From: an uncultured Bacilli bacterium
GTDB lineage: Bacteria; Bacillota_I; Bacilli_A; RF39; UBA660
Assembly: GCA_934101225.1 (NCBI GenBank)
Contig: CAKOQK010000002.1
Location: 40,633-104,632, forward strand
DNA length: 64,000 bases
Direction of reading: 5' to 3'
Shown: in pieces, positions 10,464 through 61,092 of the stretch
Layout: every line of letters begins with the position of its first letter
Position numbering within the stretch: the first letter of the stretch is position 1
Notes under the pieces: generated by a model
Told to the model about the DNA's origin: nothing
The model's input: the letters and a program-made list of their open reading frames with translations, nothing else
The model's database searches: none
Position numbers and translations under genes: made by a program

Positions 10464-10591
10464 TTCGAAATTTAAAAAATACAATTTTTTAAAAATAATT
10501 TACCTATTAAGTTAATCAAAATGATTGACTTTTATTTTTTATATGCTATTATATTATTAACCAATTATGTTAAATGGAGAAAGGAAACTTA

Positions 10592-10924
10592 ATGGAATTA
10601 ACATACAAAACTAAAAAACTTCAAAGATTATGTGAAGATCCAACATATAATAATGAATTGGTTAAAAGATATAATAAAGAAGTTGCTATTAAATTACCCC
10701 GAAGAATTAAAGAATTAAAAGCTGCGGTATGTTTAGAAGATATTCCTTCATCTTTGCCATTTAGAAGACATAAGTTAACAGGGGATTTAAAGGGATATTT
10801 TGCTATAAATATTACTTTACAATATCGCTTAATATTTAAACAAAAAGATAATAATATAATAATAGAAGATTTAAGAAAAATAAAAGAAATAGAAATTATG
10901 GAGGTGTCTAAACATTATGAGTAA
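10592..10924 (+). CDS. higB: HigB-type (plasmid killer family) RelE/ParE-superfamily toxin
   Basis: The motif HKLTGDLKGYFAINITLQYRLIF matches the HigB/killer-protein signature. The toxin comes first and overlaps the downstream HTH gene. The start could also be 10574. Confidence 0.7.
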   Translation: MELTYKTKKLQRLCEDPTYNNELVKRYNKEVAIKLPRRIKELKAAVCLEDIPSSLPFRRHKLTGDLKGYFAINITLQYRLIFKQKDNNIIIEDLRKIKEIEIMEVSKHYE

Positions 10925-11981
10925 GTCAAATGTGTATAATGAATATGTCATAGCACCAGGAGAAACAATTTTAGAACTATTAGAATCTAACGGAATGAGT
11001 CAATTAGATTTAGCTTATAAAACTGGAATTAATAAAAAAACAATTAATGAAATAATTAAAGGTAAAGCACCAATAACAACAACTACTGCTTTAAAATTTG
11101 AATATGTTTTTAATATACCAGCCAGTTTTTTTAACAATTTAGAAAGTAGTTATCAAGAAGTACTAGAAAGAAAAAATGATTTTATTAAAGTTAAAGAAGA
11201 AGAAAAATATTTAGAAAATATTCTTTATAATGAGATGGCTAAGCGTGGTTGGGACTGGATAGAAAAAACTAATGATCCATTTCAAAAAGTTATTAATTTA
11301 AGAAAATTTTTTTCAGTTGCTTCTTTATCTTTTGATACTGAATTAAAAAAGAAATTAGCCTTTAGAAAGAAAAATAATGATAAATTTTCTAATGAAGCAT
11401 TATACTGTTATTTAAGATATGGTGAAATTGAGTCAAATAAAGTAACCTATCCTAAATTTAACATTTTATTATTAAATGAAAATTTATCTAGGTTACGTAA
11501 ACTTGCAAATGATTCATTTATTAAACAATTTAATAAATTAAAAGAAATCTTATTTAGTTGTGGCATATCACTTATATTCGAGCCAGAACTACCACACACT
11601 TATGTTAACGGGGTATCATATATGATTAATCCAAATAAAGCCATTATCATGATAAGCGATAGAGGAAAAAAGAATGATATTATTTGGTTTACTTTCTTTC
11701 ATGAAATAGGTCATTTGCTTAAACATAGTCGAAAAGAAGTATTTGTTGATTTAGATGATAAAGAAGAAAATAATATTGAAAAAGAAGCAGATAAATTTGC
11801 TAGAAATATTTTAATACCAGATAAAAGTTATAATGAGTTTATTAGAAATAATAAGATATTTACAGAAAAGATTTTAAAAGATTTTTCTAAAAGTATTAAC
11901 ATATTACCAGGAATTCTTGTTGGAAGACTTCAAAAAGATGGTTTAATTAAATGGAATGAATTTAATTATTTAAAAAATTAG
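10917..11981 (+). CDS. Fusion protein: XRE-type HTH (HigA position) plus ImmA/IrrE (COG2856) zinc-metallopeptidase domain
   Basis: N-terminal HTH (MSQLDLAYKTGINKKTINEIIKG). C-terminal HEIGH (HExxH) motif at FFHEIGHLLKH. Confidence 0.7.
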   Translation: MSKSNVYNEYVIAPGETILELLESNGMSQLDLAYKTGINKKTINEIIKGKAPITTTTALKFEYVFNIPASFFNNLESSYQEVLERKNDFIKVKEEEKYLENILYNEMAKRGWDWIEKTNDPFQKVINLRKFFSVASLSFDTELKKKLAFRKKNNDKFSNEALYCYLRYGEIESNKVTYPKFNILLLNENLSRLRKLANDSFIKQFNKLKEILFSCGISLIFEPELPHTYVNGVSYMINPNKAIIMISDRGKKNDIIWFTFFHEIGHLLKHSRKEVFVDLDDKEENNIEKEADKFARNILIPDKSYNEFIRNNKIFTEKILKDFSKSINILPGILVGRLQKDGLIKWNEFNYLKN

Positions 11982-45543: not shown

Positions 45544-45888
45544 ATGTTATATCGTAAATTAGGTAGAGAAACTCGTATTAGAAGAAGCATATTGGCTGGA
45601 CTAACTAAAGATGTAATCAATCATGGATATGTTGTTACTACTGATGCAAGAGCAAAAGAAGTAAGAAAATTCGTAGATAAAATGATTACTTATGGTAAAG
45701 ATGGTTCTTTAGTTGCAAGAAGAAAGGCTTTAGCTTTCTTACATAATGATAAAGATACTGTTAATAAAGTATTTGCAGAATTAGCTCCTAAGTATGCTAA
45801 CCGTCAAGGTGGTTATACTAGACTAATTAAATTAAATGAACGTAAGGGCGATGACGCTATGCAAATTAGACTTGAATTAGTTGACTAA
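45544..45888 (+). CDS. rplQ: 50S ribosomal protein L17
   Basis: Last gene of the alpha operon. Carries the GGYTR motif. Confidence 0.95.
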   Translation: MLYRKLGRETRIRRSILAGLTKDVINHGYVVTTDARAKEVRKFVDKMITYGKDGSLVARRKALAFLHNDKDTVNKVFAELAPKYANRQGGYTRLIKLNERKGDDAMQIRLELVD

Positions 45889-45904
45889 TTTAGGTCTTTT
45901 TTTT
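45868..45904 (+). terminator. Intrinsic terminator of the ribosomal superoperon
   Basis: 13-bp stem AGACTTGAATTAG / CTAATTTAGGTCT (two G-U pairs), loop TTGA, T8 run. Overlaps the rplQ stop. Confidence 0.8.
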
Positions 45905-45922
45905 ATAATTATAAAGATAGAT

Positions 45923-46174
45923 ATGGTAGAAGAAAAAAGAAAATTAATTAAAGAATTAGCTATTGATATTATATTTGTTTTAATTTTAATTGGATTAACA
46001 ATAATTGGAGTAACTCATGTATTTCCAAAAAATAGTAAAGTACATGTTATGTCTACTCATGATTTTGAATGTAAAAATGCAATTAATTGTGAATGTAATA
46101 AAAGAAACTGCATTTGTGATTATTGTTTAGATGATTTTTGTAAGGAAAGTAAAAAAATAACTTGTAATAATTAA
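45923..46174 (+). CDS. Small membrane-anchored Cys-rich protein
   Basis: One TM (IIFVLILIGLTIIGV), then nine Cys in 40 residues (ECKNAINCECNKRNCICDYCLDDFCKESKKITC). No clear RBS. Confidence 0.4.
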   Translation: MVEEKRKLIKELAIDIIFVLILIGLTIIGVTHVFPKNSKVHVMSTHDFECKNAINCECNKRNCICDYCLDDFCKESKKITCNN

Positions 46175-46641
46175 TGAAAGAAAGTAGGAATATTATGAAG
46201 GAAGCAATAGATGAAGCGAGAAGAACGATGAATTTAAATTATGGTGGACCATTTGGAGCAATGATTGTAAAAGATAATAAAATTATAGTGGTTGCTTCTA
46301 ATACTGTTTTAAAAGATAATGATCCTACAGCTCATGCTGAAATTAATGTAATCAGAAAAGCAAGTAAAGTACTTAATACTTATGATTTATCAGGATGCAC
46401 TTTATATACAACAGGGTATCCATGTCCTATGTGTTTATCAGCAATTATTTGGTCCAATATCAAAGAAGTATATTATGGGACTAACCTAGAAGATGCTGAA
46501 AATATTGGTTTTAGAGATGAATTTATCTATGATTATATTAAAGGAAAAAATAAAGATATATTAAGATTAAAGAATTTTGAACATGATGAATGTCTAAAAT
46601 TATTCAAAGAATATTATGAAAATAATAAAGAAATATATTAG
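46174..46641 (+). CDS. guaD: CMP/dCMP-type zinc deaminase, GuaD-like (guanine deaminase)
   Basis: HAE and PCPMC zinc motifs. Overall collinearity with my recollection of the 156-aa B. subtilis GuaD (GGPFGA.IVKD, NDPTAHAE, LYT...PCPMCL.AI.W). Confidence 0.65.
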   Translation: MKESRNIMKEAIDEARRTMNLNYGGPFGAMIVKDNKIIVVASNTVLKDNDPTAHAEINVIRKASKVLNTYDLSGCTLYTTGYPCPMCLSAIIWSNIKEVYYGTNLEDAENIGFRDEFIYDYIKGKNKDILRLKNFEHDECLKLFKEYYENNKEIY

Positions 46642-46651
46642 GAGCTATTAT

Positions 46652-47437
46652 ATGAAACAAACATTAGAAGAATTAAGAGAAAGTTACTACATTGCAATTA
46701 GCCGGTTAGATAATGAAGATGATATTAGAAATTCGTTACCTTCAAATACCTGTGATAGTTTTGAAGAATTAATAAATATGATTACATCTAAATTAGATGA
46801 TGAAATTTGTGAGTGGGAACAAGAAGATTTAATTGCTGAAACAGAGGAAGACAAAGAATTAGTAAAAAAAGAACTCGATATATTATACTTAAAGAAGAGA
46901 ATTTGTTTGGAAAAATTAAATGAATTTAATCAAAATAATGCTTTAGTCGAAGCTTATGAGAATATACCTCAAAAACATTTAATATTTGCAACAAGTGATT
47001 TAGGAAATGTATACTTTTTAAGAGATTTAAAAGATGTTTCAGAAGAATATTACAAAGATGTGTTAGACTTATTAAATGATTTACAAAATAATAATATTAG
47101 TGTTATGAATGAAACTAAAGATAAAAAATTAAATGGTAAATTGTCAGATATTTTTGAAAAGAAAGCATTTAAAATAAGAATTTGTTACCGTATATTAACG
47201 CCAGATACATGTTATGTTATGCTAGTTAAAATGAAAAAATCAACTAGAGATACAAAATATAATGCAGAGATTGAAAATAGAAAATTAAATACAGAGAGTG
47301 ATTATCAAAGAGTAAAAAAACTATTACAAGATCCTAAAAGTAGAGAAGATTTAATAAGTTCTAATGAAGAAATAAAAAAAGAAATTGAAAAATATATAAA
47401 AGAAAATGGTAGAGGAGGGTATCAAAATGCTATCTAA
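46652..47437 (+). CDS. Hypothetical protein; the C-terminal half has a RelE/Gp49-like pattern
   Basis: ATG after AGGAG. See findings for the segment KLSDIFEKKAFKIRICYRILTPDTCYVMLVKMKKSTRD. Confidence 0.5.
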   Translation: MKQTLEELRESYYIAISRLDNEDDIRNSLPSNTCDSFEELINMITSKLDDEICEWEQEDLIAETEEDKELVKKELDILYLKKRICLEKLNEFNQNNALVEAYENIPQKHLIFATSDLGNVYFLRDLKDVSEEYYKDVLDLLNDLQNNNISVMNETKDKKLNGKLSDIFEKKAFKIRICYRILTPDTCYVMLVKMKKSTRDTKYNAEIENRKLNTESDYQRVKKLLQDPKSREDLISSNEEIKKEIEKYIKENGRGGYQNAI

Positions 47438-47675
47438 AAGGAATAATGATGCTGGGTTAAAATTAATTGAAAAAGTAAAATTAATGTATATAAAAGAAAT
47501 AATTGATGAATTAAAAAATAGTCCGGAACTTACCTTATATTTAGCTGAAGAAGAAGATCTATCTCCCAAAGATTATATAATATATACTAGTACACTAGAT
47601 AAAAATATAGGATATTATGATAGTACCTTAAAAAAGATATATACCCTAAAAAGTAACCAAAACAAAAATCATTAG
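47427..47675 (+). CDS. Small hypothetical protein overlapping the upstream gene
   Basis: ATG after GAGGAGGG. 11-nt overlap with the previous ORF. Confidence 0.4.
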   Translation: MLSKRNNDAGLKLIEKVKLMYIKEIIDELKNSPELTLYLAEEEDLSPKDYIIYTSTLDKNIGYYDSTLKKIYTLKSNQNKNH

Positions 47676-47692
47676 AAATTGTTCTAATGATT

Positions 47693-48202
47693 TTATTTTT
47701 CAAATATACTTAATATTTTAGAAGCTATAAAAACAATATTATCTGCTTTTTTAACTGCAACTGTTTTAAATATTGCTTTACCTGTTACTGTTAAAGCTGA
47801 AATAATTGCTGAAGTAATAATTGAGGCTATTGTAATATCAATATATTTTGACATGCTTATTGCAAGTACTGCTCCTAAACCACCAGATACAATTCCACAA
47901 ACATCACCAATAATATCGTTACAAAAACTTGCAACTCTTACATTCTTTCTAATTAATTTAGTTGCTTTCTTAGCTCCTTTAATTTTTTTAGAACTTTTAG
48001 CATGAAATGTTGATTCCCTAGCCGATAAAACAGCAACACCTAACATATCAAAAACTATTCCTATAGAGATAACTAATAAAATTAATAATATCATAATTAT
48101 ATTACTTGCATTATTAGATAATTTATTAGTTAGAAAACTAAATATTAACGCAAGAGTAAAAGATAGTATAAATACTATTAAATTCCAATTCACTTTTTTC
48201 AT
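47693..48202 (-). CDS. Small 4-TM membrane protein with DxxxD in TM3 (OapA-like, or DUF21-like TM-only protein)
   Basis: Four hydrophobic helices, a basic loop (KSSKKIKGAKKATKLIRKN), and NDIIGDVCG (D96/D100). Confidence 0.6.
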   Translation of the reverse strand: MKKVNWNLIVFILSFTLALIFSFLTNKLSNNASNIIMILLILLVISIGIVFDMLGVAVLSARESTFHAKSSKKIKGAKKATKLIRKNVRVASFCNDIIGDVCGIVSGGLGAVLAISMSKYIDITIASIITSAIISALTVTGKAIFKTVAVKKADNIVFIASKILSIFEK

Positions 48203-48223
48203 TAATAACCCTTTCTTTTTATG

Positions 48224-48252
48224 AAAAAAACTTTATATAAATATAAAGTTTT
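48224..48252 (-). terminator. AT-rich hairpin plus U-tract on the minus strand, 20 nt upstream of the 4-TM gene RBS (terminator or attenuator)
   Basis: The minus strand reads AAAACTTTATAT-TT-ATATAAAGTTTT followed by TTT. Confidence 0.45.
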
Positions 48253-48740
48253 GAAATAAAACAATGGTTTATTATAAGTTAATTTTACGGCTTTGGTCGA
48301 GTTGAGTTTCTCTATTTTCCTTCCTTTGATTACTCTAGGGCGATTTCTCCTTTACAGAAAATAATTATTAGTTGCCTAAGTAATTACTCGATTGCCACAT
48401 AGTCCGTACTACAATCCTTATAATAAATACATGCTAGAGGTTTTCCCTGACACTCTTATCCCATTCTTATTCGCTTTTGCAAAAATGATTTCAATTTCTA
48501 TCCCACATTTTCACTCACGACATGATTTTAATTCTTTTATTATCTAATAATAGGGTAAGACATATGCCATTATGGTTTCCCTACTATTTAAAATTACATA
48601 TTCGCCCCAACTTGGGCAGAAGAAGCAAAATATATAAAGTATCGATATCAATTAATGGATTTTTAGGCCCATCTTCAAATGGTGTTTGTGACTAGCATAA
48701 TGCACCACGTATTAATAATATCACATTTTAATTAAAATGT
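48253..48740 (-). ncRNA. Candidate large structured RNA or long structured leader (unclassified; OLE-like context)
   Basis: No ORF of 60 aa or more on either strand across 48203-48927. By hand count G+C is about one third here, against far lower values in neighbouring spacers. Several helices contain G-U pairs only on the minus strand. A possible promoter is TTGTTC-16-TATACT at 48770-48743. Confidence 0.4.
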
Positions 48741-48880
48741 CCAGTATAGTATATGCCAAATAGCGAACAAAATATTGACCTTTATTTTAGATTGTGATTT
48801 ATAATCTAAATTTTATACTAAAAAATTACATAACAAATATATAGATTATTTTATGTAAAATTATCTTTAAAAATTAAAAA

Positions 48881-48909
48881 TTGACAATTAGTAATTATTT
48901 TATTAAAAT
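48881..48909 (+). promoter_or_regulatory. Sigma-A-type promoter of the 48928 surface-protein gene
   Basis: TTGACA (48881-48886), 17-nt spacer, TAAAAT (48904-48909). Confidence 0.6.
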
Positions 48910-48927
48910 AAAATCAAGGAGGAACGT

Positions 48928-50112
48928 ATGTCAAAGACAAGAGAAGAAGACAAAAAGTCTTCTAAAAATGAGAATAAGAAAAAGATTATTGGTATCATTT
49001 TTGGTATTTTATTGTTATCTTTAATAATTTTCTTATTATGGTTTTTTAATCGAAAGTTTGATATCACTTTTGATTTAAATAATGGTGCTAAAGAAGACAT
49101 AACTCAAGTTAAATATAACCAAACCATTGATGTAAAAGATATCAAAGATGAAAAAGAACTTGGAGAATCATTTATAAATTGGTATGAAGTGATTGAAATT
49201 AAAGAAAATGAGGAATTATTAGCCAAAGAACCATTTGATTTTAACACCAAAATTAAAAAGAATATAAAATTAAAAGCAATTTATAAAGGAAAAATCGAAT
49301 CTATTACTATTACATTTGATTCTAAAGGTGGTAGTGCTGTTAAACCTATTACAATCAATAAAGGAGTTCCATTAACTCTTCCTAAAGAACCTACATATAG
49401 TGGATATACTTTTAAAGGATGGTATGATAAAAATGGAACACCAATTCATGAAAAAGCACTTTTAGAAGAAGATACTACTTTATATGCTAAATGGAAAAAA
49501 ATACCAACAACAACAACAGCAGCACAAACTCAGCCAGAAGAAAAAATATCATTAAGATTAAGCGTGGACACTCTTCATGTTAACGGAATTAAAAAATCAA
49601 ACGCGACAGCTAGTGTTGAAAATTCTAGCGGAAATGTTACGTATTCATTAAGTGATACTAATTGTATGACAATTAATGAAAATACCGGTGTTATTAATGT
49701 TGTTTCTAACCCTAAAAATTGTTCAAATGGAGCAACCGTTACAGTAACTGCTAAAACTCCAAGTGGAAAAAGTGCTACTGCAACTATTTATTATGAAAAA
49801 GATTTAGCTTTAACTCATGAAAATAAAATTTATACAAAAAATGATAAAACATATGGTAAATCTTCATCATTTACTGTTAACGCCAATCAGAATGTTAGTT
49901 GGAATATTGCTGCCGCAGTAGAACCATCATATAATTATACTTATAATGCTTACAAAAATAAAACAGCAACATCTGTAACTGGTGATTATATTATTGAAAG
50001 TATTGTAGAATCAACTGGCGCTATTAGTAAAATATCATCTGATGTAAAAGTAACAGCTACTACTAAGGCTGGACAAAAATTATCTTTAATTATAAATAAA
50101 TATGTAGCGTAA
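48928..50112 (+). CDS. Membrane-anchored surface protein with Listeria-Bacteroides (Flg_new) repeats and a Big_2-like domain
   Basis: N-terminal anchor. Repeats of the form ITFDSKGGS...YSGYTFKGWYDKNGTP...DTTLYAKW. An Ig-like segment SLRLSVDTLHVNG...VTYSLSD. Confidence 0.7.
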   Translation: MSKTREEDKKSSKNENKKKIIGIIFGILLLSLIIFLLWFFNRKFDITFDLNNGAKEDITQVKYNQTIDVKDIKDEKELGESFINWYEVIEIKENEELLAKEPFDFNTKIKKNIKLKAIYKGKIESITITFDSKGGSAVKPITINKGVPLTLPKEPTYSGYTFKGWYDKNGTPIHEKALLEEDTTLYAKWKKIPTTTTAAQTQPEEKISLRLSVDTLHVNGIKKSNATASVENSSGNVTYSLSDTNCMTINENTGVINVVSNPKNCSNGATVTVTAKTPSGKSATATIYYEKDLALTHENKIYTKNDKTYGKSSSFTVNANQNVSWNIAAAVEPSYNYTYNAYKNKTATSVTGDYIIESIVESTGAISKISSDVKVTATTKAGQKLSLIINKYVA

Positions 50113-50186
50113 TTAAAAATAGAAGATTATAATGTTACTAAGTAAAAAACTCTAGATTTTCTAGATGTTTTTTTATACTATAATTA

Positions 50187-50272
50187 AGTAAATACAAGAA
50201 CAATACCAATTGAAAATAGAAAAAATATTGAAAATAATGAATTAATAAATACAATAAATATTAATAATGATT
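50187..50272 (+). pseudogene. Decayed relic of the 3' end of the duplicated 355-aa gene, fused to its downstream flank sequence
   Basis: agtaaatacaagaa matches the flank at 51587-51600. caataccaattgaaaata...taatgaattaat.aatacaataaatattaataatga matches 51351-51455 and 53503-53607, with an internal deletion. Confidence 0.6.
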
Positions 50273-50467
50273 AAAATATAATTTATATTTAACTGTTGGA
50301 AATCAAAGTTTATTGAATAATACAGAAGAAAACGAAATAAATTTATAAAAAATAAATAGCCAAGTATTATTTTTAATAAATTGGCTATTTTAATTTAATA
50401 AGATATGTTATTATTAAAATAACTAAACAACATAATATAATTAACATATACTAGAAATGAGGAATAT

Positions 50468-51535
50468 ATGAAAAAGAAAATTTTGATTATTGGTATAATA
50501 ATTATTATATTTATTTACGGTTTATTTTTAGTTACAAAAACATTAAAAAAAGAAAATAATGACGGCAATGGTAGTAATGATAATCAAGCAAAGTCATATG
50601 AAATTATTGATGAAAAGGCTAATGAAGATTATAAAACTTTGTTAAAGATTCAGTCAGGGGGAGATACTGATGTTGATAGCCCTGACATTGAATATAAAGA
50701 AATTGATTATAACTATAAAATAGATTTAAATAAAGTAGTTGAAACTGTACCAGCTATTACATACAACAACAATGAAGAACTTAAAGACATTGTTGAAATT
50801 ATTAAAGATAAATTTAATATTACAATCGATAATTCATGGAAATATAGTATTCATTATCCGTCTTCTGATTTATCTTTTGGTTATATTATTTTTTTGTATT
50901 ACATTGATAATATTATTGAAACTAATAAATATATTTATTTTACCATTAATAATGGTGTAATAGAGAAGATTGCTTATGCTTATTTAGATAAACAAATTAA
51001 TGAAAATGAAGTGTTATATAGATATAATTATTTTATCAATCATTACAAACAAGAAAAAGGTTTATTACAAGATTATATAAATCAATACGCAATAGAAAGT
51101 GAGGATACTAAATACATTTATAATTATACTAATAATAAATTACTTTATACATTTAATATAATTTATAAAGAAAAAAATTCAGGTTTTACAACTATTGATT
51201 GGGGTACAGAAACTTATATAGAGCCTAAATTAATCGAAAATTTAATTAAAACTAAAAAAATTATTGTAAAAGATGCTAACAATAAAGAAGTTAATACTAT
51301 TAGTGATCAAAAAGATATAACTAAAATAACTGAATTATTATCAAGAACAATACCAATTGAAAATAACAAAAATATTGAAAAAAATAATTGGAACTTATCA
51401 CTTTATGATGAAAATAATGAATTAATTAATACAATAAATATTGATAATGATGGAACATTAGGTATTGATAATATAAAAAATGAATATTTAAAAAAACAAT
51501 ATTTTAACGAGTTAACTAAATTATTAAAACAATAG
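50468..51535 (+). CDS. Membrane-anchored hypothetical protein, paralog 1 (355 aa)
   Basis: N-terminal TM. Paralogous to 52620-53687. Confidence 0.7.
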   Translation: MKKKILIIGIIIIIFIYGLFLVTKTLKKENNDGNGSNDNQAKSYEIIDEKANEDYKTLLKIQSGGDTDVDSPDIEYKEIDYNYKIDLNKVVETVPAITYNNNEELKDIVEIIKDKFNITIDNSWKYSIHYPSSDLSFGYIIFLYYIDNIIETNKYIYFTINNGVIEKIAYAYLDKQINENEVLYRYNYFINHYKQEKGLLQDYINQYAIESEDTKYIYNYTNNKLLYTFNIIYKEKNSGFTTIDWGTETYIEPKLIENLIKTKKIIVKDANNKEVNTISDQKDITKITELLSRTIPIENNKNIEKNNWNLSLYDENNELINTINIDNDGTLGIDNIKNEYLKKQYFNELTKLLKQ

Positions 51536-51605
51536 AGATTACTTAATTTTATAATCTTTTATTATATAAATTCATGCTACCATGAAGTAAATACAAGAAA
51601 ACATT

Positions 51606-51716
51606 TAATTAGGTGATTTTAATACTTCATTATCGTATTTATAAAAAAATGTTTTATGTTTTTTTAATAGTCTAAATAACTTTCTTAGTAATAATATTAA
51701 GAGATATTCTACCTTC
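51606..51716 (+). pseudogene. Decayed copy of the 5' end and upstream region of the class B PBP gene
   Basis: Aligns to 53786-53900 (ttaattaggtgattttaat[a/g]cttcattatcgtatt...). The ATG has changed to ATA. Confidence 0.6.
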
Positions 51717-52619
51717 CGTGTGAATCCATTAGTATTAAATGATAAGTTAACATCCATTAAATTTATTTTTAGAGCTAAGTAATAATTTACTGTTACTAAA
51801 ACTATAATTGAAAGATATATTTGTTAAATATTAATCTCTTGCTCCTAAAAAATAATGAAAGTAGCAAATAAATAGTATAAGCATGTCAAAATTTATAAAG
51901 GTGAATGTTACTTTTAAACTTAAAATACTTAAAAAATAATTAAAAAAGTAACAAAAAATATGACAATCAATAAAAATTAAAAAAATATATAATATGTAGA
52001 AATATAAGGAATGACAATGAATATAAGAGTTTCAATATTTTGAAATCACTTGTATATCTTGCTATTTTTCTTTAAAGTTAAATTATCTCCCATTGAATTA
52101 TCTAGTCAAGTTAAATTAAATCCAATTTTACTTATTAATGATAAATTATTTATGGAATTACCAATTCTCTTTATAGAATGGTCATTCTTAACTATATATA
52201 AGCAAATTAAAAAAAATTACCATCCAATTATAGTTGCAAAATTAAATATAAATCATATTATGAATTAAATAATTGGAATATTAATAAAGTATTTGATTTG
52301 TTAAAAGATATGTCATTGTCGTTAGGAACTAATTAAAATTTATTTACTTTTTGATAATTATGCTAAAAGTATAGATAGATTAGAAATTGAATTTCCAAAT
52401 AAATCAAAATTAGAAGTTGTTCAACAAGTAAATCAAGAATATTTATATTTTTAAACTAATATTATTGATCAATATTTAAAAAATATTATAGTAAATATAT
52501 ATGAATTTAAATCAAGTATTATTTTTAATAAATTGGCTATTTTAATTTAATAATATATGTTATACTTAAAATAATCAAACAACATAAAATAATTAACATA
52601 TACTAAAAAAGAGGAATAT

Positions 52620-53687
52620 ATGAAAAAGAAAATTTTGATTATTATTGTAGTAATTATTATATTTATTTGCAGTTTATTTTTAGTTGCAAATAAATTAAAA
52701 AAAGAAAATAATAACGACAATAAAGGTAATGATAATCAAGCAAAATTATATGAAGTTATAGATGAAAAGGCTAATGAAGACTACAAGAAATTATTAAACC
52801 TTCAATACTGGGAAGATGTTAATATATATATTCCAGATATTGAATATAAAGAAATTGATTATAACTATAAAATAGATTTAAATAAAGTGGTTGAAACTGT
52901 ACCACCTGTTACATATAACAACAATGAAGAAATTAAAGATATTGTTGAAATTATTAAGGATAAATTTAATATTACCATCGATAATTCATGGAAATATTAC
53001 ATTCATTATCCGTCTTCTGATTTATCTTTTGGTTATATTACTTTTTCACATTATATCGATAATATTATTGCAACTAATAAATATATTTCTTTTACCATTA
53101 ATAATGGTGTTATAGATAAAATCGCTTATGCTTATTTAGATAAAAAGGTTAATGAAAATGAAGTATTATATAGATATAATTATTTTATTAACCATCACAA
53201 ACAAGAAAAAGGTTTTGTCCAAGATTATGAAGAATATTTCACCATTGCAGGAGAAATAACATTACTTAACTATAGTTATGTTGATAATAAATTGTGTTAT
53301 ACATACAATATTTTGTATCAATACAAAGGTACGGATGTTATTAATAATGATTGGGGTACAGAACTATACATAGAGCCTAAATTAATTGAAAATTTAATTA
53401 AAACTAAAAAAATTGTTGTAAAAGATGATAACAATAAAGAAGTTAATACTATTAGTGATCAAAAAGATATAACTAAAATAACTGAATTGTTATCAAGAAC
53501 AATACCAATTGAAAATAACAAAAATATTGAAAAAAATAATTGGAATTTATCACTTTATGATGAAAATAATGAATTAATTAATACAATAAATATTAATAAT
53601 GATGGAACATTAGGTATTGATAATATAAAAAATGAATATTTAAAAGAACAATATTTTAACGAGTTAACTAAATTATTAGAACAATAG
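52620..53687 (+). CDS. Membrane-anchored hypothetical protein, paralog 2 (355 aa)
   Basis: Same length and architecture as 50468-51535. The upstream 110 bp and the downstream flank are also duplicated. Confidence 0.7.
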   Translation: MKKKILIIIVVIIIFICSLFLVANKLKKENNNDNKGNDNQAKLYEVIDEKANEDYKKLLNLQYWEDVNIYIPDIEYKEIDYNYKIDLNKVVETVPPVTYNNNEEIKDIVEIIKDKFNITIDNSWKYYIHYPSSDLSFGYITFSHYIDNIIATNKYISFTINNGVIDKIAYAYLDKKVNENEVLYRYNYFINHHKQEKGFVQDYEEYFTIAGEITLLNYSYVDNKLCYTYNILYQYKGTDVINNDWGTELYIEPKLIENLIKTKKIVVKDDNNKEVNTISDQKDITKITELLSRTIPIENNKNIEKNNWNLSLYDENNELINTININNDGTLGIDNIKNEYLKEQYFNELTKLLEQ

Positions 53688-53794
53688 AGATTACTTAATT
53701 GGGTAATCTTTTTTTATAAATTCATGATGCCATGAAGTAAATACAAGAACACATTTAATTCTAAAGAAAGAATATCGATAATATATTTAATTAG

Positions 53795-55711
53795 GTGATT
53801 TTAATGCTTCATTATCGTATTCATAAAAGAATGTATTACGTGTATTTTACTGTCTTAATAACTTTTTTAGTAATAATTTTAAGAGTATTTTATCTTCAAG
53901 TATTTAAAGTAAATAATATAAAAGATAAGGCCAATAGTCTATGGAGTCGTAATTTACCAATTCTTGCTGATAGAGGTAAAATAACTGATCGTAATGGCAT
54001 AGTTCTTGCTGATAATTTAACAACAACATCTCTAGTAGTAATACCAGTTCAAATTCAAAATAAAGAAGAGGTTGCTAAAAACTTATCTGAAATACTAGGA
54101 ACAACATATTTAAATATTTATTCCCATTTAACCAAACATACCTCAATTGAAAGAATTCATCCTGAAGGAAGAAGATTATCATATGATATTGCAGAAAAAA
54201 TAAATAATTTAAATTATGATGGAGTTTATTTACTTAAAGAATCTAAAAGATATTATCCATATGAATCATTACTTTCCCATGTTTTAGGATATGTTGGTAT
54301 AGATAATCAAGGTTTATCTGGAATTGAACTTGAATACGATAAGTATTTAAAAGGTAATGACGGAGGTATATTATATTATTCTGATGGTAAAGGAAATCGT
54401 TTAAATTTATCTGAAGTTTATGATGAACCTGTTAATGGCAATAATATTTCTTTAACGATAGATATAAATATTCAAGAAGCTGTTGAAAAAGAATTAGATA
54501 ATGTAGTTACAAAATATAATCCAGATAGTACTTTAGCCTTAGTTATGGATCCAAATAGTGGAGAAGTTCTTGCTATGTCATCTCGTCCAAACTTTGATTC
54601 TAATAATTATAAAAATTATGACTTAGAGACTATCAACCGAAATTTACCAATATGGATGACTTATGAACCCGGTTCGACTTTCAAAATTATAACTCTATCT
54701 AGTGCTATAAATGAAGGAAAAGTAAACTTATTTGATGATCATTATTATGATGGTGGATCAATTCAAGTTGAAAATGCCCGAATTAAATGTTGGAAAAGAG
54801 GAGGTCATGGTTCTGAAACCTTTTTAAACGTCGTAGAAAACTCTTGCAACCCCGGTTTTGTCGTACTAGGTCAAAGATTAGGTACTGAAACTTTATATTC
54901 ATACTTAGAAAAATTTGGTTTTGGTAAAAAGACCGGAATTGATTTAAATGGTGAAGCCAGCGGTATCATGTTTAAATTATCTAAAATGGGACCAGTTGAA
55001 ACTGCAACAACCGCTTTTGGTCAAGGTATAAGTGTAACACCTATTCAACAAGTAACGGGAGTATCAGCCGCTATTAATGGTGGAACATTATATAAACCTT
55101 ACATAGTTAAATCAATAAGTGAACCTGAAACAAATAATGTAATTGTTCTTAATAAAAAACAAGTAGTTAGAGAAAATATCGTAACAGAAGAAACTAGTAA
55201 CTTAGTCAGATTTGCCCTTGAAAGTGTAGTTCAAAATGGTACTGGTAAAAATGCCTATATTGAAAATTACCGAGTAGGTGGTAAAACCGGAACAGCCCAA
55301 AAAGTTAAAGATGGTAAATATATGGTTGGTAATTATATTGTTTCATTTATTGGTTTCTTACCAGCTGATAATCCTAAATATGTAGTCTATGTTGCAGTAG
55401 ATAATCCAAAAGGTATCACTCAGTATGGTGGGACAGTTGCCGCACCTATTGCTAAAAATATTATGCTAAGTATTATAGATAGCCAAAATATACCAAAAGT
55501 AGAAACAGATAGAGCTAGAGAATATACATGGCTAGATACTAAATATATTAAATTACCAGATGTTACAGGAAATGATTTAGATACTGCTAAAAAATCTTTA
55601 AAAGGATTTAAAATAGAATACTCAGGAAGTGGTGAAAAAGTAATATCTCAAATGCCAGAAGGAAATACTTTTGTAAAAGAAAATAGCATCGTTAAAATAT
55701 TATTAGATTAA
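53795..55711 (+). CDS. Class B penicillin-binding protein (FtsI/PBP2B/SpoVD family) with a single C-terminal PASTA domain
   Basis: STFK (SxxK), SCN (SxN) and KTGT motifs. The PASTA segment is KLPDVTGNDLDTAKKSLK.... The start may be ATG at 53804. Confidence 0.85.
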   Translation: MILMLHYRIHKRMYYVYFTVLITFLVIILRVFYLQVFKVNNIKDKANSLWSRNLPILADRGKITDRNGIVLADNLTTTSLVVIPVQIQNKEEVAKNLSEILGTTYLNIYSHLTKHTSIERIHPEGRRLSYDIAEKINNLNYDGVYLLKESKRYYPYESLLSHVLGYVGIDNQGLSGIELEYDKYLKGNDGGILYYSDGKGNRLNLSEVYDEPVNGNNISLTIDINIQEAVEKELDNVVTKYNPDSTLALVMDPNSGEVLAMSSRPNFDSNNYKNYDLETINRNLPIWMTYEPGSTFKIITLSSAINEGKVNLFDDHYYDGGSIQVENARIKCWKRGGHGSETFLNVVENSCNPGFVVLGQRLGTETLYSYLEKFGFGKKTGIDLNGEASGIMFKLSKMGPVETATTAFGQGISVTPIQQVTGVSAAINGGTLYKPYIVKSISEPETNNVIVLNKKQVVRENIVTEETSNLVRFALESVVQNGTGKNAYIENYRVGGKTGTAQKVKDGKYMVGNYIVSFIGFLPADNPKYVVYVAVDNPKGITQYGGTVAAPIAKNIMLSIIDSQNIPKVETDRAREYTWLDTKYIKLPDVTGNDLDTAKKSLKGFKIEYSGSGEKVISQMPEGNTFVKENSIVKILLD

Positions 55712-57536: not shown

Positions 57537-59288
57537 ATGGAAAAAGATAAAAAACATTTATATAAAAATTTTATAAAAAATGCCAAGATAACTTTAAAAT
57601 ATTCAAAAAATTATAAAGGAACATTATTAACAATATTAATTATTAATCTTATAGTTTCTGGAATTGGATTTGTTACTCCTATTTTATCTGCAAAATATAT
57701 TTCCTACTTAACAAATGGATTATTTAATAATCTTTTATATATAATTATAGTTCAAACGATAACATATATAGTCAGTATATTTTTAAGATTAATATCAAGT
57801 AAAATGAATCGTTACTATGATTTTAAAATAAAAAGAAAGTTACAATTAGAACTTACTAGAGCAACTTTAACTATAGATCAAAATATTTTAAATAAAGAAA
57901 ATAGTGGAACCTTTATTGAAAGAATTAATGGTGCTACTAATTTATCTTCCAGATTAATACGTATTGCTGAAAGTATATTTAATTTATTAGGAGATTTGGG
58001 AGTTTTAATAGTTGTGATTAATCTTGATTTACCGATTGGAATAGCTTATACAATTTTAATGTTAATAAGTGTATTATATGATAAATATTCTGATAACGTT
58101 AGTTATAAAAATGGTGAAAAGGTTTATAATTTAGTTGATAAAACTAGTGGATTTATTTCGGAAATTGTTAGAGGAACTAAAGATATTAAAATTCTTAATG
58201 CTGAAGAATCATTTTTAGAAGAAGCCGATAAATATATGAATAATGCTAATACTGTAAGATTAAAATCTAATATCACAGATGAAAAACTATCAACAATTTC
58301 TTCAATAATAAGTGAATTATCAAAATTATTAATTGGTTTAATAATAGTTTATGAATTAATGAATGGAAATTTAAGTATTGAATCTGCCTTAATTATATAT
58401 AATTACAAAGGCAATATAAGCTGCCTTAAATCTGATTTATCATCTATTCATTTTTGGATAAGTAATTTTGTATTAGATTCTAATCGTACATATGATATTC
58501 TAGATGATAATAAATTTCCTAAAGAAAAATTCGGAAATAAAAACCTATCTAAATTTAAAGGACATATTGAATTTAAAGATGTTAACTTCTCATATGAAGA
58601 AAATATACCTGTATTAAAGAATTTAAATTTAGAAGTATTACCAAATGAAGTAGTTGGTTTTGTTGGCCCATCGGGAGCTGGTAAAAGTACAATCTTTAAT
58701 TTAATAAGTGCTTTAAATAAACCAGATAGTGGTGAAATCTTATTTGATGGAGAAAATATTAATGAATTAACCAAGGATTCAATAAGAGGTAATCTATCAG
58801 TAATAAGTCAAAATGCCTATATATTTAATATGAGTATAGAAGACAATTTAAGAATAATAAAGAAAAACGCTACTAAAAAAGAAATTGAAAAAGCTTGTAA
58901 AATGGCATGTTTAGATGAATTTATCGAAAGCTTACCAAATAAATATAAAACAATAGTAGGAGAAGGCGGTGTAACATTATCAGGAGGACAACGCCAAAGA
59001 ATAGCAATAGCAAGAGCACTATTATTAAATACTGAAGTATTATTATTTGATGAAGCAACAAGTAGTTTAGATAACACAACCCAAGAAAAAATCCAAAAAG
59101 CAATTGAAAACTTAAAAGGAAAATACACAATACTGATAATAGCCCATCGATTATCAACTGTTATAAATTCTGATAAAATATATGTTATAAATAAAGGGAC
59201 TGTAGAAGGTGTAGGCACGCATAAAGAATTATTAAAAACTTGTAAAATATATGCTGACTTATATAAAAATGAAGATAATAAAAATTGA
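57537..59288 (+). CDS. ABC exporter, fused permease/ATPase (type I exporter half-transporter)
   Basis: Six-TM N-terminal domain. Walker A GPSGAGKST, signature LSGGQRQR, Walker B LLFDEATS, H-loop IAHRL. Confidence 0.9.
   Translation: MEKDKKHLYKNFIKNAKITLKYSKNYKGTLLTILIINLIVSGIGFVTPILSAKYISYLTNGLFNNLLYIIIVQTITYIVSIFLRLISSKMNRYYDFKIKRKLQLELTRATLTIDQNILNKENSGTFIERINGATNLSSRLIRIAESIFNLLGDLGVLIVVINLDLPIGIAYTILMLISVLYDKYSDNVSYKNGEKVYNLVDKTSGFISEIVRGTKDIKILNAEESFLEEADKYMNNANTVRLKSNITDEKLSTISSIISELSKLLIGLIIVYELMNGNLSIESALIIYNYKGNISCLKSDLSSIHFWISNFVLDSNRTYDILDDNKFPKEKFGNKNLSKFKGHIEFKDVNFSYEENIPVLKNLNLEVLPNEVVGFVGPSGAGKSTIFNLISALNKPDSGEILFDGENINELTKDSIRGNLSVISQNAYIFNMSIEDNLRIIKKNATKKEIEKACKMACLDEFIESLPNKYKTIVGEGGVTLSGGQRQRIAIARALLLNTEVLLFDEATSSLDNTTQEKIQKAIENLKGKYTILIIAHRLSTVINSDKIYVINKGTVEGVGTHKELLKTCKIYADLYKNEDNKN
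58513..59283 (+). repeat. Direct repeat copy 1 (NBD-coding block)
   Basis: Identical to 60314-61084 except at 5 positions (59133, 59135, 59162, 59198, 59210). Confidence 0.95.
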
Positions 59289-59339: not shown

Positions 59340-61092
59340 ATGAAAAAAATTAAAGATTTTAATGAAATAATTAGTAATTTTATAAAAATATATAAATATA
59401 ATAAAAATACCAAGAAAAATATAATTAAAGCAGTAATTATTGATTTGATAATTATAATTATTTATTTTCTTTATCCTTTAATAATTGCAAAATCTCTTCT
59501 TGCACTATCTAATAATAAATTAAATATTTTATTAATTATGGTAATGGTGTTATTTGTAATAGATTCGGCAGATTCTTTATTAAAATACCTTTTTTCAATC
59601 ATTTTTAATAAAATAAACTATCAAATTAAAAAGAATATTCAATTGGAATTAATTAGTGAAAGCCTTAAAATAAATCAAAGTACTTTAAATCAAACATCTA
59701 GTGGAATTTTAATTGAAAGAATAAATAATGATACTAATAATTTAGCAAAAAACATAACAAATTTACTAGATTTATTAATGTTCCTTATTAGGAAGAATTG
59801 GACTTATATTTGCAATATGTGTGATAAATATTTATGTTGGTTTATTATATATTTTCTTTATTGTTATGGTTTTATTATTTAACAATTACTCTTACAAAAT
59901 TAATTACAAGAATAATCAAAAACAAAGAGAAAATAGGGATAAAACTGGTGGTTTTGTTTCAGAAATTATTAAGGGAACAAAAGATATAAAGATTCTTAAT
60001 GCAGAAAAATCATTTTTAAACAAAACAGGAGAATATATTGATGATGCCAATAAAATAAATTATGAATATGAAGTTGAAAGAAAAAAATTATATTCAATTA
60101 TGCTATTTATAAAATCATTGGGTGATTTTGCTTCCGGTTTACTTATAATATTTTTAATATATAAAAATGAATTAACAACTGAAGCAGCTTTAATTTTATA
60201 TAATTATAGTGGTTCTGTTCAAAGTATTACTTATACTTTATCTAATTTATCAATCACAATCAACGATTTTAATCTATCATGTAATCGTATTTTTGGTTTA
60301 TTAGGAAGTGAAGAATTTCCTAAAGAAAAATTCGGAAATAAAAACCTATCTAAATTTAAAGGACATATTGAATTTAAAGATGTTAACTTCTCATATGAAG
60401 AAAATATACCTGTATTAAAGAATTTAAATTTAGAAGTATTACCAAATGAAGTAGTTGGTTTTGTTGGCCCATCGGGAGCTGGTAAAAGTACAATCTTTAA
60501 TTTAATAAGTGCTTTAAATAAACCAGATAGTGGTGAAATCTTATTTGATGGAGAAAATATTAATGAATTAACCAAGGATTCAATAAGAGGTAATCTATCA
60601 GTAATAAGTCAAAATGCCTATATATTTAATATGAGTATAGAAGACAATTTAAGAATAATAAAGAAAAACGCTACTAAAAAAGAAATTGAAAAAGCTTGTA
60701 AAATGGCATGTTTAGATGAATTTATCGAAAGCTTACCAAATAAATATAAAACAATAGTAGGAGAAGGCGGTGTAACATTATCAGGAGGACAACGCCAAAG
60801 AATAGCAATAGCAAGAGCACTATTATTAAATACTGAAGTATTATTATTTGATGAAGCAACAAGTAGTTTAGATAACACAACCCAAGAAAAAATCCAAAAA
60901 GCAATTGAAAACTTAAAAGGAAAATACACAATATTAATAATAGCCCATCGATTATCAACTGTAATAAATTCTGATAAAATATATGTTATAAATAAAGGAA
61001 CTGTAGAAGGCGTAGGCACGCATAAAGAATTATTAAAAACTTGTAAAATATATGCTGACTTATATAAAAATGAAGATAATAAAAGTAAATAA
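59340..61092 (+). pseudogene. Second ABC exporter half-transporter, interrupted by a +1 frame change at about 59779-59785
   Basis: ORFs 59340-59882 and 59821-61092 are collinear with the upstream paralog. The second frame is open from 59779 (SLLGRIGLIFAICVINIYVG...). Confidence 0.7.
60314..61084 (+). repeat. Direct repeat copy 2 (NBD-coding block)
   Basis: Offset of 1801 bp from copy 1. Compared base by base by eye. Confidence 0.95.

What the first reader, a model, noticed from the sequence alone, without database searches (positions are those of the whole stretch)
47693..48900. ORF-free, GC-enriched ~0.5 kb block co-directional with a 4-TM DxxxD protein: candidate large structured RNA in an OLE/OapA-like arrangement
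Seen:
1. The 725-bp interval 48203-48927 has no ORF of 60 aa or more on either strand, in a genome that is otherwise tightly packed.
2. By hand count, the lines between 48301 and 48720 are 25-37 % G+C. Five of the seven lines fall at 33-37 %. Ordinary spacers nearby, for example 50110-50460, are far more AT-rich.
3. On the minus strand I can draw several helices. They include AATAGTAGGG/CCCTATTATT (48588-48579 with 48554-48545, one G-U pair), GTGAAAATG/CATTTTTGC (two G-U pairs), GCCC-AAGTTG-GGGC and GGTG...CACC. The wobble pairs would be A-C mismatches on the plus strand, which favours minus-strand transcription.
4. A possible promoter, TTGTTC-16-TATACT, lies at 48770-48743.
5. An AT-rich hairpin with a U-tract (48252-48224) sits only about 20 nt before the RBS of the downstream minus-strand gene. 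That gene therefore has no room for a promoter of its own after the hairpin and would have to be transcribed through this region.
6. The downstream protein (169 aa) has four TM helices, a basic loop, and NDIIGDVCG (D96-x3-D100) in TM3.

Established, as I recall it: OLE RNA is a roughly 600-nt ornate RNA of anaerobic or extremophilic Firmicutes. It is always followed by oapA, a small 4-TM protein with a functionally critical DxxxD motif that anchors the RNA to the membrane.

Inference: this could be a divergent OLE-type ribonucleoprotein locus, or a different and possibly undescribed large RNA or leader controlling a membrane protein. I could not recognise OLE consensus nucleotides from memory, so the class assignment is open.
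Basis: partly seen in the sequence, partly recalled or inferred. Interest (0 to 1): 0.8.

Follow-up and report, generated by a model that had tools for sequence, protein, structure and literature searches.

The report
Compact OLE RNA with its oapA gene
The ORF-free block is a shortened (about 470 nt) copy of the known OLE non-coding RNA, followed by the gene for its membrane anchor protein OapA; this reduced form was already described in 2024 in small-genome gut bacteria, so the finding is correct but not new.

Summary
Rfam's OLE model (RF01071) matches window 48248-48724 on the minus strand over its full length (228 bits against a threshold of 50, E 5e-63). The 169-aa gene downstream on the same strand (47693-48202) is an OapA orthologue. 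It has four hydrophobic helices, a 10-K/R loop, an invariant CNDxxGD motif (D96/D100) and a CNNM-like fold.

In 49 of 52 related genome loci an OLE lies directly upstream of the OapA homologue. These RNAs fall into a full-length class (585-660 nt) and a compact class (466-493 nt), and the window belongs to the compact class. It lacks P7, P8, the distal P9 arm with its palindromic kissing loop, a small hairpin and the k-turn 'UGAA' motif.

Within 15 compact sequences, 88.8% of consensus pairs are kept (40-44% in slid controls), and 38 pairs show compensatory changes. The RNA is therefore under selection.

A promoter conserved in position sits just upstream. A weak AU-only terminator hairpin separates ole from oapA, which has no promoter of its own here.

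Fernando & Breaker 2024 already describe this reduced 'variant 2' OLE in RF39-type gut genomes. Verdict: real, correctly interpreted, already known. The one possibly undescribed point is the loss of the P9 arm.

The parts
48738..48743 (-). -35 hexamer (TGGACA) of the proposed ole promoter
   Evidence: Listed by the consensus scan as TGGACA-17-TATTAT, 10 of 12 matches with TG. A TTGACA/TGGACA/TAGACA hexamer with a 17-nt spacer and a (TGn)TATAAT-like -10 keeps the same position relative to GUGGUGCA in 15 loci whose flanking sequence is otherwise unrelated.
48715..48723 (-). Extended -10 element (TGaTATTAT). The predicted transcription start is near 48708, at the G of GUGGUGCA.
   Evidence: The -10 ends 6-11 nt before GUGGUGCA in all compact-OLE loci. 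The first 16 nt of the Rfam match (48724-48709) are therefore probably promoter DNA rather than RNA (inference).
48248..48724 (-). OLE RNA gene, compact form (Rfam RF01071 match)
   Evidence: 228.2 bits against a gathering score of 50, E 4.8e-63, model positions 1-616 of 616, 477 nt. The consensus structure is kept with covariation in 15 compact homologues.
48692..48705 (-). 5' strand of the long-range P3/P3.1 helix (GGUGCAU...GCUAG), which pairs with 48427-48437
   Evidence: The nine innermost pairs (22-296 to 33-288) are standard pairs in all 15 compact sequences. Pair 29-292 covaries as G-C, C-G and U-A. The name P3 and its proposed membrane-spanning role come from PMC12265935. The helix is not annotated in the Rfam model.
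48654..48673 (-). P4 hairpin with the invariant A-rich loop (GGGCCUAAAAAUCC)
   Evidence: helix 1, 100% paired. The loop forms a dimer contact in the cryo-EM structures.
48593..48638 (-). P5/P5.1 long hairpin with the invariant GCCCA loop
   Evidence: helix 2, 7 pairs with compensatory changes. Just upstream, the consensus GAUGAAG is reduced to GAU--AC, so the G.A motif of the k-turn is missing.
48545..48588 (-). P6/P6.1 hairpin with the invariant AAUGGCAU loop
Evidence: helices 3 and 4, 6 pairs with compensatory changes.
48522..48544 (-). Short A-rich linker in the place of J6/7, P7 and P8
   Evidence: Model positions 198-277 (two hairpins in the full-length alignment) are replaced by 8+7 nt. 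This segment is 15-16 nt in all compact OLEs and 74-132 nt in full-length ones.
48470..48521 (-). P9 stub: the proximal stems and the conserved GGGAU/UGAAA internal loop are kept, and the distal arm is replaced by a GAAA loop
   Evidence: Fifty model positions are replaced by 4 nt. The distal segment is 7-9 nt (26 nt in L014) in compact OLEs. In nearly all full-length OLEs it is 51-58 nt with a palindromic tip (AGCU, GGCC, GAGCUC). Helix 6 has 6 covarying pairs.
48268..48427 (-). 3' domain (P12-P15 multi-helix junction) with highly conserved joining regions. It includes the P13 hairpin at 48364-48384, which has a bulged U and a GCAA tetraloop.
   Evidence: helices 9-14. The GNRA loop plus single-nucleotide bulge are the determinants of OapB binding described in PMC7936274. 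The small hairpin at model positions 424-435 is absent.
48224..48252 (-). A/U-only hairpin followed by a U-run: a weak intrinsic terminator between ole and oapA
   Evidence: Hairpins with different sequences, each followed by a U-tract, occupy the same place in L034, L038, L039, L043, L059 and L071. They are absent in L014, L062 and L065. The G+C-requiring terminator scan does not detect it.
48209..48215 (-). Ribosome-binding site (GAAAGGG) of oapA
   Evidence: Read directly from the sequence. It lies 6 nt upstream of the ATG at 48202.
47693..48202 (-). oapA, encoding a 169-aa CNNM-like four-helix membrane protein with DxxxD

Best explanation
The locus is a two-gene ole-oapA unit on the minus strand.

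Transcription. A sigma-70-type extended -10 promoter (48743-48715) starts transcription at about 48708. The product is a compact OLE RNA of about 460-485 nt. The RNA ends at, or reads through, a weak AU-rich terminator hairpin (48252-48224). Read-through transcripts carry oapA (48202-47693), which has no promoter of its own in this genome.

Function, carried over from H. halodurans and the Clostridium cryo-EM work. OapA is a CNNM-like four-helix membrane protein with a basic loop and a DxxxD motif. It is expected to bind OLE RNA and hold it at the membrane. The resulting ribonucleoprotein helps the cell cope with stresses such as Mg2+, alcohol, cold and poor carbon sources.

What is kept and lost here. 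This RNA is the reduced form found in small-genome gut Bacilli.
- Kept: the long-range P3 helix, the P4 A-rich loop, the complementary P5.1/P6.1 loops, the proximal part of P9 and the whole P12-P15 domain.
- Lost: P7, P8, the k-turn motif that binds OapC, and the distal P9 arm that forms one of the dimer contacts.

Shown here: the family assignment, the structure conservation, the gene linkage, the promoter and terminator anatomy, and the protein features. Inferred: expression, the exact transcript ends, RNA-protein binding, membrane localisation and physiological role.
For: - RNA family. The Rfam OLE model matches end to end at 228 bits against a threshold of 50, and it is the only Rfam match in the 64-kb window.
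- Structure. On 15 compact homologues the Rfam consensus structure is 88.8% paired (40-44% when partners are slid). 38 pairs have changes on both sides, against 6-11 in slid controls. 0 of 500 shuffles reach the observed covariation score. P3/P3.1 pairs in all 15, with one covarying pair.
- Linkage. 49 of 52 genome loci that encode an OapA homologue have an OLE match directly upstream on the same strand. The same holds for metagenome loci L059, L062-L067 and L071-L073.
- OapA. C94, N95, D96, G99 and D100 are invariant across 16 homologues, including those next to 480-540-bit full-length OLEs. PF01595 (CNNM) scores E 7e-6. The AlphaFold model (pLDDT 81) has the CNNM/CorB/CorC transmembrane domains as its four best PDB matches, with TM-score up to 0.62.
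- Promoter and terminator. Both are conserved in position while their sequences diverge.
- Literature. The variant 2 OLE of RF39-type gut genomes lacks P7 and P8, those clades lack OapB and OapC, and OapA is CNNM-like with DxxxD (PMC11332333).
Against: - No expression data were available, so the transcript and its ends are predictions.
- The bit score is less than half that of full-length OLEs, because about 140 nt of the model are missing.
- The P14.1 helix pairs poorly in this alignment (59% of cells; helix 14).
- The P4a palindrome AUCGAU, a reported OapA-binding site, is present in the window but varies among compact relatives.
- All functional statements are transferred from distant species with full-length OLE and three Oap proteins.
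- The host order (RF39) could not be checked. NCBI titles say only 'uncultured Tenericutes/Bacilli bacterium'.
Confidence: 0.95

Rival explanations
1. The block is a decaying OLE pseudogene. In a shrinking genome the RNA has lost function and is being deleted piece by piece, while oapA persists on its own.
For: - About 140 nt of the consensus are missing, including sites for protein partners and one dimer contact.
- OapA homologues without an adjacent OLE do exist (L016, L057, L068-L070), so oapA can apparently stand alone at a locus.
Against: - The same compact architecture (466-493 nt) is kept in lineages whose OapA proteins are only 46-62% identical to the window's.
- There are long invariant blocks and 38 pairs with compensatory changes.
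- The deletions are clean removals of whole hairpins rather than scattered damage.
- The promoter is conserved in position.
Confidence: 0.03
2. The block is mainly a cis-acting leader, of riboswitch or attenuator type, that senses a signal such as Mg2+ and controls read-through into oapA. On this view it is not a trans-acting RNP component.
For: - The RNA is co-directional with oapA and is separated from it by a terminator-like hairpin.
- In the window clade oapA has no promoter of its own.
- OapA is related to Mg2+ transporters.
Against: - In related loci (L034, L038, L071) oapA has its own promoter after the terminator, and the OLE is still conserved.
- The terminator stem is not part of the conserved OLE fold, and no alternative pairing with OLE was seen.
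- Published work shows OLE acts as a stable, abundant RNA bound by OapA.
Confidence: 0.02

Closest known systems
OLE RNA 'variant 2' of RF39-type gut Bacillota (Fernando & Breaker 2024, mSphere, PMC11332333)
   Same: - It lacks P7 and P8 entirely while keeping the highly conserved OLE nucleotides.
- It is found in uncultured, reduced-genome gut bacteria known only from metagenome assemblies.
- oapA is retained.
- No oapB or oapC was seen in the 64-kb window.
   Different: - The text of that paper mentions only the loss of P7 and P8. Here the distal P9 arm, the small hairpin at model positions 424-435 and the k-turn UGAA motif are missing as well. Its figure could not be viewed, so I cannot say whether these are part of the published variant 2 consensus.
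- The RF39 assignment of this host was not testable.
Full-length OLE RNA (Rfam RF01071; Halalkalibacterium halodurans, Clostridium acetobutylicum)
   Same: - The same conserved sequence blocks.
- The same P3, P4, P5/5.1, P6/6.1, proximal P9 and P12-P15 helices.
- The same ole-oapA gene order and strand.
   Different: - It is about 120-140 nt shorter. P7, P8, the P9.3 kissing loop (dimer bridge B3 of Kretsch et al. 2025) and the k-turn are absent.
- It has its own promoter and sits alone beside a ribosomal-protein cluster, rather than being embedded in a polycistronic cluster of isoprenoid, DNA-repair and similar genes.
OapA (OLE-associated protein A)
   Same: - Four transmembrane helices, a basic loop and DxxxD in the third helix.
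- Weak CNNM/DUF21 similarity and no CBS or CorC domains.
- Encoded immediately downstream of ole.
   Different: Nothing of note. It is 35-40% identical to the OapA of Thermoanaerobacterium and Desulfitobacterium.
MpfA/CorB/CorC CNNM-family Mg2+ transporters (PDB 7M1T, 7M1U, 7CFF)
   Same: The transmembrane fold. These are the four best structural matches, with TM-score 0.42-0.62.
   Different: - They have three rather than four transmembrane helices per CNNM domain.
- They carry cytosolic CBS and CorC domains.
- They lack DxxxD and have no RNA partner (PMC11332333).

Membership tests
OLE RNA (Rfam RF01071) | Covariance-model score above the curated gathering threshold, over the whole model | tested here: met
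   228.2 bits against 50, E 4.8e-63, model positions 1-616 of 616, not truncated.
OLE RNA (Rfam RF01071) | Highly conserved sequence blocks: GUGGUGCA.UAU.CUAGUCA, CCUAAAAAUCC, GCCCA, AAUGGCAU, GGAUU..AGU.CGGACUA.GUGG.AAUC, GACC.AAGCCG.AAAAUU.A and ACCA | tested here: met
   All are present in the window and invariant or nearly so in 15 compact homologues.
OLE RNA (Rfam RF01071) | Ornate secondary structure supported by covariation | tested here: met
   104 consensus pairs are 88.8% paired, against 40-44% in slid controls. 38 pairs have changes on both sides, against 6-11 in slid controls. P3/P3.1 is also supported.
OLE RNA (Rfam RF01071) | oapA immediately downstream on the same strand | tested here: met
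   oapA starts 46 nt after the Rfam match. The same arrangement is seen in 49 of 52 related genome loci.
OLE RNA (Rfam RF01071) | Full length of about 600 nt with P7, P8 and the long P9 arm | tested here: not met
   The match is 477 nt. P7 and P8 are replaced by 15 nt and the distal P9 arm by 4 nt. This places it in the published reduced variant rather than outside the family.
OLE RNA (Rfam RF01071) | Host is an anaerobic or extremophilic member of Bacillota | tested here: inconclusive
   Identical and near-identical loci come from human gut metagenomes and from MAGs titled 'uncultured Tenericutes/Bacilli bacterium'. No GTDB classification was available.
OLE RNA (Rfam RF01071) | Expressed as a stable RNA that forms a membrane-localised RNP with OapA | not testable with these tools
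   This needs RNA-seq or Northern blots, binding assays and imaging.
OLE variant 2 (Fernando & Breaker 2024) | Entire absence of P7 and P8 with the other conserved nucleotides retained | tested here: met
   against the description.
OLE variant 2 (Fernando & Breaker 2024) | Genome lacks oapB and oapC | tested here: inconclusive
   None of the ten ORFs scanned in the window (nine of 72-138 aa and one of 273 aa) has a KOW or L7Ae domain. Only 64 kb of the genome could be examined. The P13 GNRA loop and bulged U (the OapB site) are nevertheless retained, while the k-turn motif (the OapC site) is lost.
OapA | Small protein with four transmembrane helices and a basic loop | tested here: met
   The hydropathy scan gives segments at 3-28, 27-62, 97-129 and 120-141. 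The loop at residues 64-92 has 10 K/R and no D/E. The AlphaFold model has long helices at 6-31, 34-60, 87-117 and 123-151.
OapA | Conserved DxxxD motif in the third transmembrane helix | tested here: met
   D96 and D100 lie within the invariant C-N-D-x-x-G-D motif across 16 homologues and across 22 closer ones.
OapA | Distant CNNM/DUF21 similarity without CBS or CorC domains | tested here: met
   PF01595 scores 26.3 bits, E 7e-6, just under the gathering score of 28.4. The four best PDB fold matches are CorB and CorC transmembrane domains. The protein is only 169 aa.
OapA | Binds OLE RNA and is needed for its membrane localisation | not testable with these tools
   This is a biochemical property and is known only for H. 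halodurans.

The most novel reading that the evidence does not exclude
The compact class may be more reduced than the published description of variant 2, which mentions only the loss of P7 and P8. All 22 compact OLEs examined also lack two further elements. One is the distal P9 arm, whose palindromic loop forms dimer bridge B3 (the 'P9 arch') in the cryo-EM structures. The other is the k-turn motif bound by OapC. The three other dimer contacts (the L4 A-rich loop and the complementary L5.1/L6.1 loops) and the P3 helix are kept. If this has not been reported, these gut bacteria carry a natural minimal OLE-OapA two-component particle. That would show the P9 arch and OapC are dispensable for the core function, and it would give a smaller target for structural work.
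Probability: 0.4. Interest if true: 0.35.

Novelty: already known. Interest (0 to 1): 0.2.

Why it matters
This is a clean example of a large structured RNA correctly recognised from raw sequence, but it adds little to what is known. OLE RNA and OapA have been studied since 2006, and the shortened form in reduced-genome gut Bacilli was catalogued in 2024.

The modest value lies in using the compact form as a natural deletion experiment. It shows which parts of OLE selection keeps when the genome is under pressure to shrink:
- the P3 helix,
- the L4 loop and the L5.1/L6.1 loops,
- the proximal part of P9,
- the whole 3' domain.

It also shows which parts can go: P7, P8, the P9 arch and the k-turn. 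This bears on current models of the OLE dimer and of its proposed membrane-spanning arrangement.

Tried and rejected
- NCBIfam has no model that matches the protein.
- A sequence search of the PDB found nothing meaningful. Only the fold search recovered the CNNM domains.
- The generic promoter scan is not enriched over shuffles (11 found, 12.1 expected), and the G+C-requiring terminator scan misses the AU-only hairpin. Conservation of position among relatives was used instead.
- A permissive Rfam search of 47600-49000 (E up to 1) found nothing other than OLE. No ROOL, GOLLD, raiA, 6S, tmRNA, RNase P or M-box match appeared.
- Ten ORFs in the window (nine small and one of 273 aa) were scanned for OapB-like (KOW) or OapC-like (L7Ae) proteins. 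None was found, but this is not a whole-genome test.
- Eight large ORFs elsewhere in the window were scanned for an MpfA-type CNNM-CBS-CorC protein. None was found.
- I tried to learn whether the published variant 2 consensus also lacks the P9 arm. The figures are not held, and the supplement text says nothing on this.
- I searched the literature for the closest MAG name (UMGS1661) to obtain a GTDB order. There were no hits.
Full report
**Observation**

The interval 48203-48927 has no ORF longer than 57 aa on either strand. The block 48248-48724 is 32.1% G+C. The window as a whole is 25.1%, and the neighbouring spacers are 14.8-17.2%. Coding DNA in this genome reaches similar values, so the block stands out only as non-coding DNA with coding-like composition. 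Details are in the observation check.

**Identity of the RNA**

A scan of the whole window against Rfam 15 at gathering thresholds gives a single match. It is OLE (RF01071) at 48248-48724 on the minus strand, at 228.2 bits (threshold 50) and E 4.8e-63. It covers model positions 1-616 without truncation. A permissive search of 47600-49000 finds nothing else.

I compared the window's alignment with that of a full-length OLE from Thermoanaerobacterium butyriciformans (594 nt, 528 bits). The comparison shows where the roughly 140 missing nucleotides are:
- Model positions 198-241 and 242-277 are two hairpins, P7 and P8 in the Breaker laboratory's numbering. They are replaced by 15 nt.
- The distal 50 positions of the long P9 hairpin are replaced by a 4-nt loop.
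- The small hairpin at positions 424-435 is absent.
- The consensus 'AUCGAUGAAG' before P5 is shortened to 'AUCGAU--AC'.

Everything else aligns with high posterior probability. That includes the 5' GUGGUGCA.UAU.CUAGUCA block, the P4 hairpin with its CCUAAAAAUCC loop, P5/P5.1 with the GCCCA loop, P6/P6.1 with the AAUGGCAU loop, proximal P9 and the complete 3' multi-helix domain.

**Identity of the protein**

The 169-aa product of 47693-48202 (minus strand) matches Pfam CNNM/DUF21 weakly (26.3 bits, E 7e-6, just under the gathering score). It matches no NCBIfam model.
- It has four strongly hydrophobic segments.
- The loop at residues 64-92 has ten K/R and no acidic residue.
- NDIIGDVCG starts at residue 95.
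- In an alignment of 16 homologues, C94, N95, D96, G99 and D100 are invariant. These include proteins encoded next to 480-540-bit full-length OLEs in Thermoanaerobacterium and other Bacillota.
- An AlphaFold model built on 22 homologues (pLDDT 81, pTM 0.72) is all-helical.
- Its four best matches in the PDB are the transmembrane domains of the CNNM-family Mg2+ transporters MtCorB (7M1T, 7M1U) and CorC (7CFF), with TM-score up to 0.62.

This reproduces for this protein what Fernando & Breaker reported for H. halodurans OapA.

**Linkage and distribution**

The exact protein occurs on at least 18 metagenome contigs, mostly from human gut (Hadza and others), in the same gene context. A scan of one genome per GTDB species found 52 loci that encode a relative. 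Rfam finds an OLE directly upstream on the same strand in 49 of them.

The RNAs fall into two clear size classes:
- 585-660 nt at 370-540 bits.
- 466-493 nt at 200-232 bits.

The window's class is the short one. It includes MAGs titled 'uncultured Tenericutes bacterium' and 'uncultured Bacilli bacterium', and some labelled Erysipelotrichaceae or Clostridia. A profile built from these RNAs also finds compact OLEs in metagenome loci whose OapA is 55-73% identical to the window's (L059, L062-L067, L071-L073).

Measured on a joint alignment:
- The P7-P8 segment is 15-16 nt in every compact OLE and 74-132 nt in every full-length one.
- The distal P9 segment is 7-9 nt (26 nt in one case) in compact OLEs. 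In nearly all full-length ones it is 51-58 nt with a palindromic tetranucleotide or hexanucleotide at the tip.
- The 'UGAA' of the k-turn region is present in the full-length sequences inspected and absent from the compact ones.

**Is the compact RNA under selection?**

I transferred the Rfam consensus structure to the window sequence. That gives 104 pairs, of which 94 are standard pairs in the window itself. I then counted these pairs on a MAFFT alignment of 15 distinct compact OLEs.
- 88.8% of cells form standard pairs, against 40-44% when the 3' partners are slid by 1-3 columns.
- 38 pairs carry changes on both sides, against 6-11 in the slid controls.
- 0 of 500 shuffles reach the observed covariation score.
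- Only the P14.1 stem pairs poorly (59%).

The long-range P3/P3.1 helix is not annotated in Rfam. Recent work proposes that it spans the membrane. Its nine innermost pairs are standard in all 15 sequences, and one of them covaries as G-C, C-G and U-A. This rules out a decaying pseudogene.

**Transcription unit**

I aligned the 90 nt upstream of GUGGUGCA in 15 loci. A -35-like hexamer (TTGACA, TGGACA or TAGACA), a 17-nt spacer and a (TGn)TATAAT-like -10 keep the same position, although the surrounding sequence is unrelated. The -10 ends 6-11 nt before GUGGUGCA. In the window this promoter is TGGACA (48743-48738) and TGaTATTAT (48723-48715), which predicts a start at about 48708. The first 16 nt of the Rfam match are therefore probably promoter DNA.

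Downstream, the window has an 11-bp A/U-only hairpin followed by a run of seven U (48252-48224), then the RBS and the ATG. Hairpins of different sequence followed by U-tracts occupy the same position in six other lineages. In three of those (L034, L038, L071) a further promoter-like element follows the hairpin. The window clade has only about 20 nt there. A leaky terminator would yield much more RNA than OapA mRNA. This is an inference, and no expression data were available.

**Comparison with the literature**

[quoted passage not shown] Variant 2 is 'commonly found in RF39 organisms' and 'entirely lack[s] P7 and P8'. RF39 and TANB77 are uncultured gut bacteria with reduced genomes that largely lack OapB and OapC.
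- The same paper describes OapA as a distant CNNM relative distinguished by DxxxD.
[quoted passage not shown] It argues that P7 and P8 can be lost because they are not dimer contacts.

The window therefore contains a member of an already published class.

**What may go slightly beyond the published text**

The cryo-EM work describes dimer contacts through three elements: the L4 A-rich loop, the L5.1/L6.1 loops, and a symmetric kissing loop at the tip of P9 that covaries between the palindromes GGCC, GAUC and AGCU. Kretsch et al. also place the k-turn between J4a/5 and J6/7.

All compact OLEs examined keep L4, GCCCA and UGGCAU. They lack the P9 tip, J6/7 and the k-turn G.A motif. In the window clade the P13 hairpin still has the GNRA loop (GCAA) and the bulged U that OapB recognises. 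In the L014/L034/L038/L039/L043 sub-clade P13 is 8 nt shorter and has no GNRA loop. The figures of the 2024 paper were not available, so I could not determine whether the loss of the P9 arm is part of the published variant 2 consensus.

**Limits**

- The host's GTDB order could not be verified.
- Only 64 kb of the genome could be searched for oapB, oapC and mpfA. None was found.
- No expression, binding or localisation data exist for this form.

**Verdict**

The class is already known. Interest is low, with a small residual interest in the compact RNA as a natural minimal OLE.

Noticed in passing
L068:1154-2519 (also L069, L070); L016; L057: Three lineages encode an OapA homologue with an intact CNDxxGD motif but no OLE within the 2-3 kb upstream (nhmmer and a permissive Rfam search). 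In L068 an HD-domain gene ends 103 nt before oapA. The spacer holds a terminator hairpin and a promoter that resembles the oapA-proximal promoter of L071, which does carry a compact OLE. Either ole lies elsewhere in these genomes or OapA can persist without it.
   Followed up: partly
window 50361-51703 and 52513-53885: A tandem duplication with a period of about 2152 bp carries two 355-aa paralogues (50468-51535 and 52620-53687) that are 80% identical. They have an N-terminal hydrophobic segment and no Pfam match.
   Followed up: partly
This looks like the remnant of a third copy.
   Followed up: no
window 57537-59288 and 59821-61092: Two adjacent ABC-transporter ATPase/permease paralogues have identical C-terminal stretches of about 240 residues, while their N-terminal parts are only about 40% identical. 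The second ORF, as listed, lacks the first 160 or so residues. This could reflect recent gene conversion, a frameshifted copy or an assembly collapse.
   Followed up: no
window 10574-11981: A HigB/RelE-like toxin gene (116 aa) overlaps the start of a 354-aa HTH_3 plus Peptidase_M78 (IrrE-like) protein. This is an unusual partner for a toxin-antitoxin pair.
   Followed up: no
window 45881-47675: Four genes lie between rplQ and the convergent oapA. One is a cytidine/deoxycytidylate deaminase-family gene. The other three (ORFs of 97, 273 and 89 aa as listed) have no Pfam match. The set is conserved on the metagenome contigs that carry the identical OapA.
   Followed up: no
A1 columns 372-395 (L014, L034, L038, L039, L043): In one sub-clade of compact OLEs the P13 hairpin is 8 nt shorter and its GNRA tetraloop (the OapB recognition element) is gone. 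The window clade keeps the GCAA loop and the bulged U.
   Followed up: partly
window 1-64000: Apart from OLE, no Rfam family reaches its gathering score anywhere in the 64 kb. There is no tRNA, no ribosomal-protein leader beside the S10-spc-alpha cluster, and no T-box before the class I (ValS-like) aminoacyl-tRNA synthetase gene at 19591-22122.
   Followed up: no
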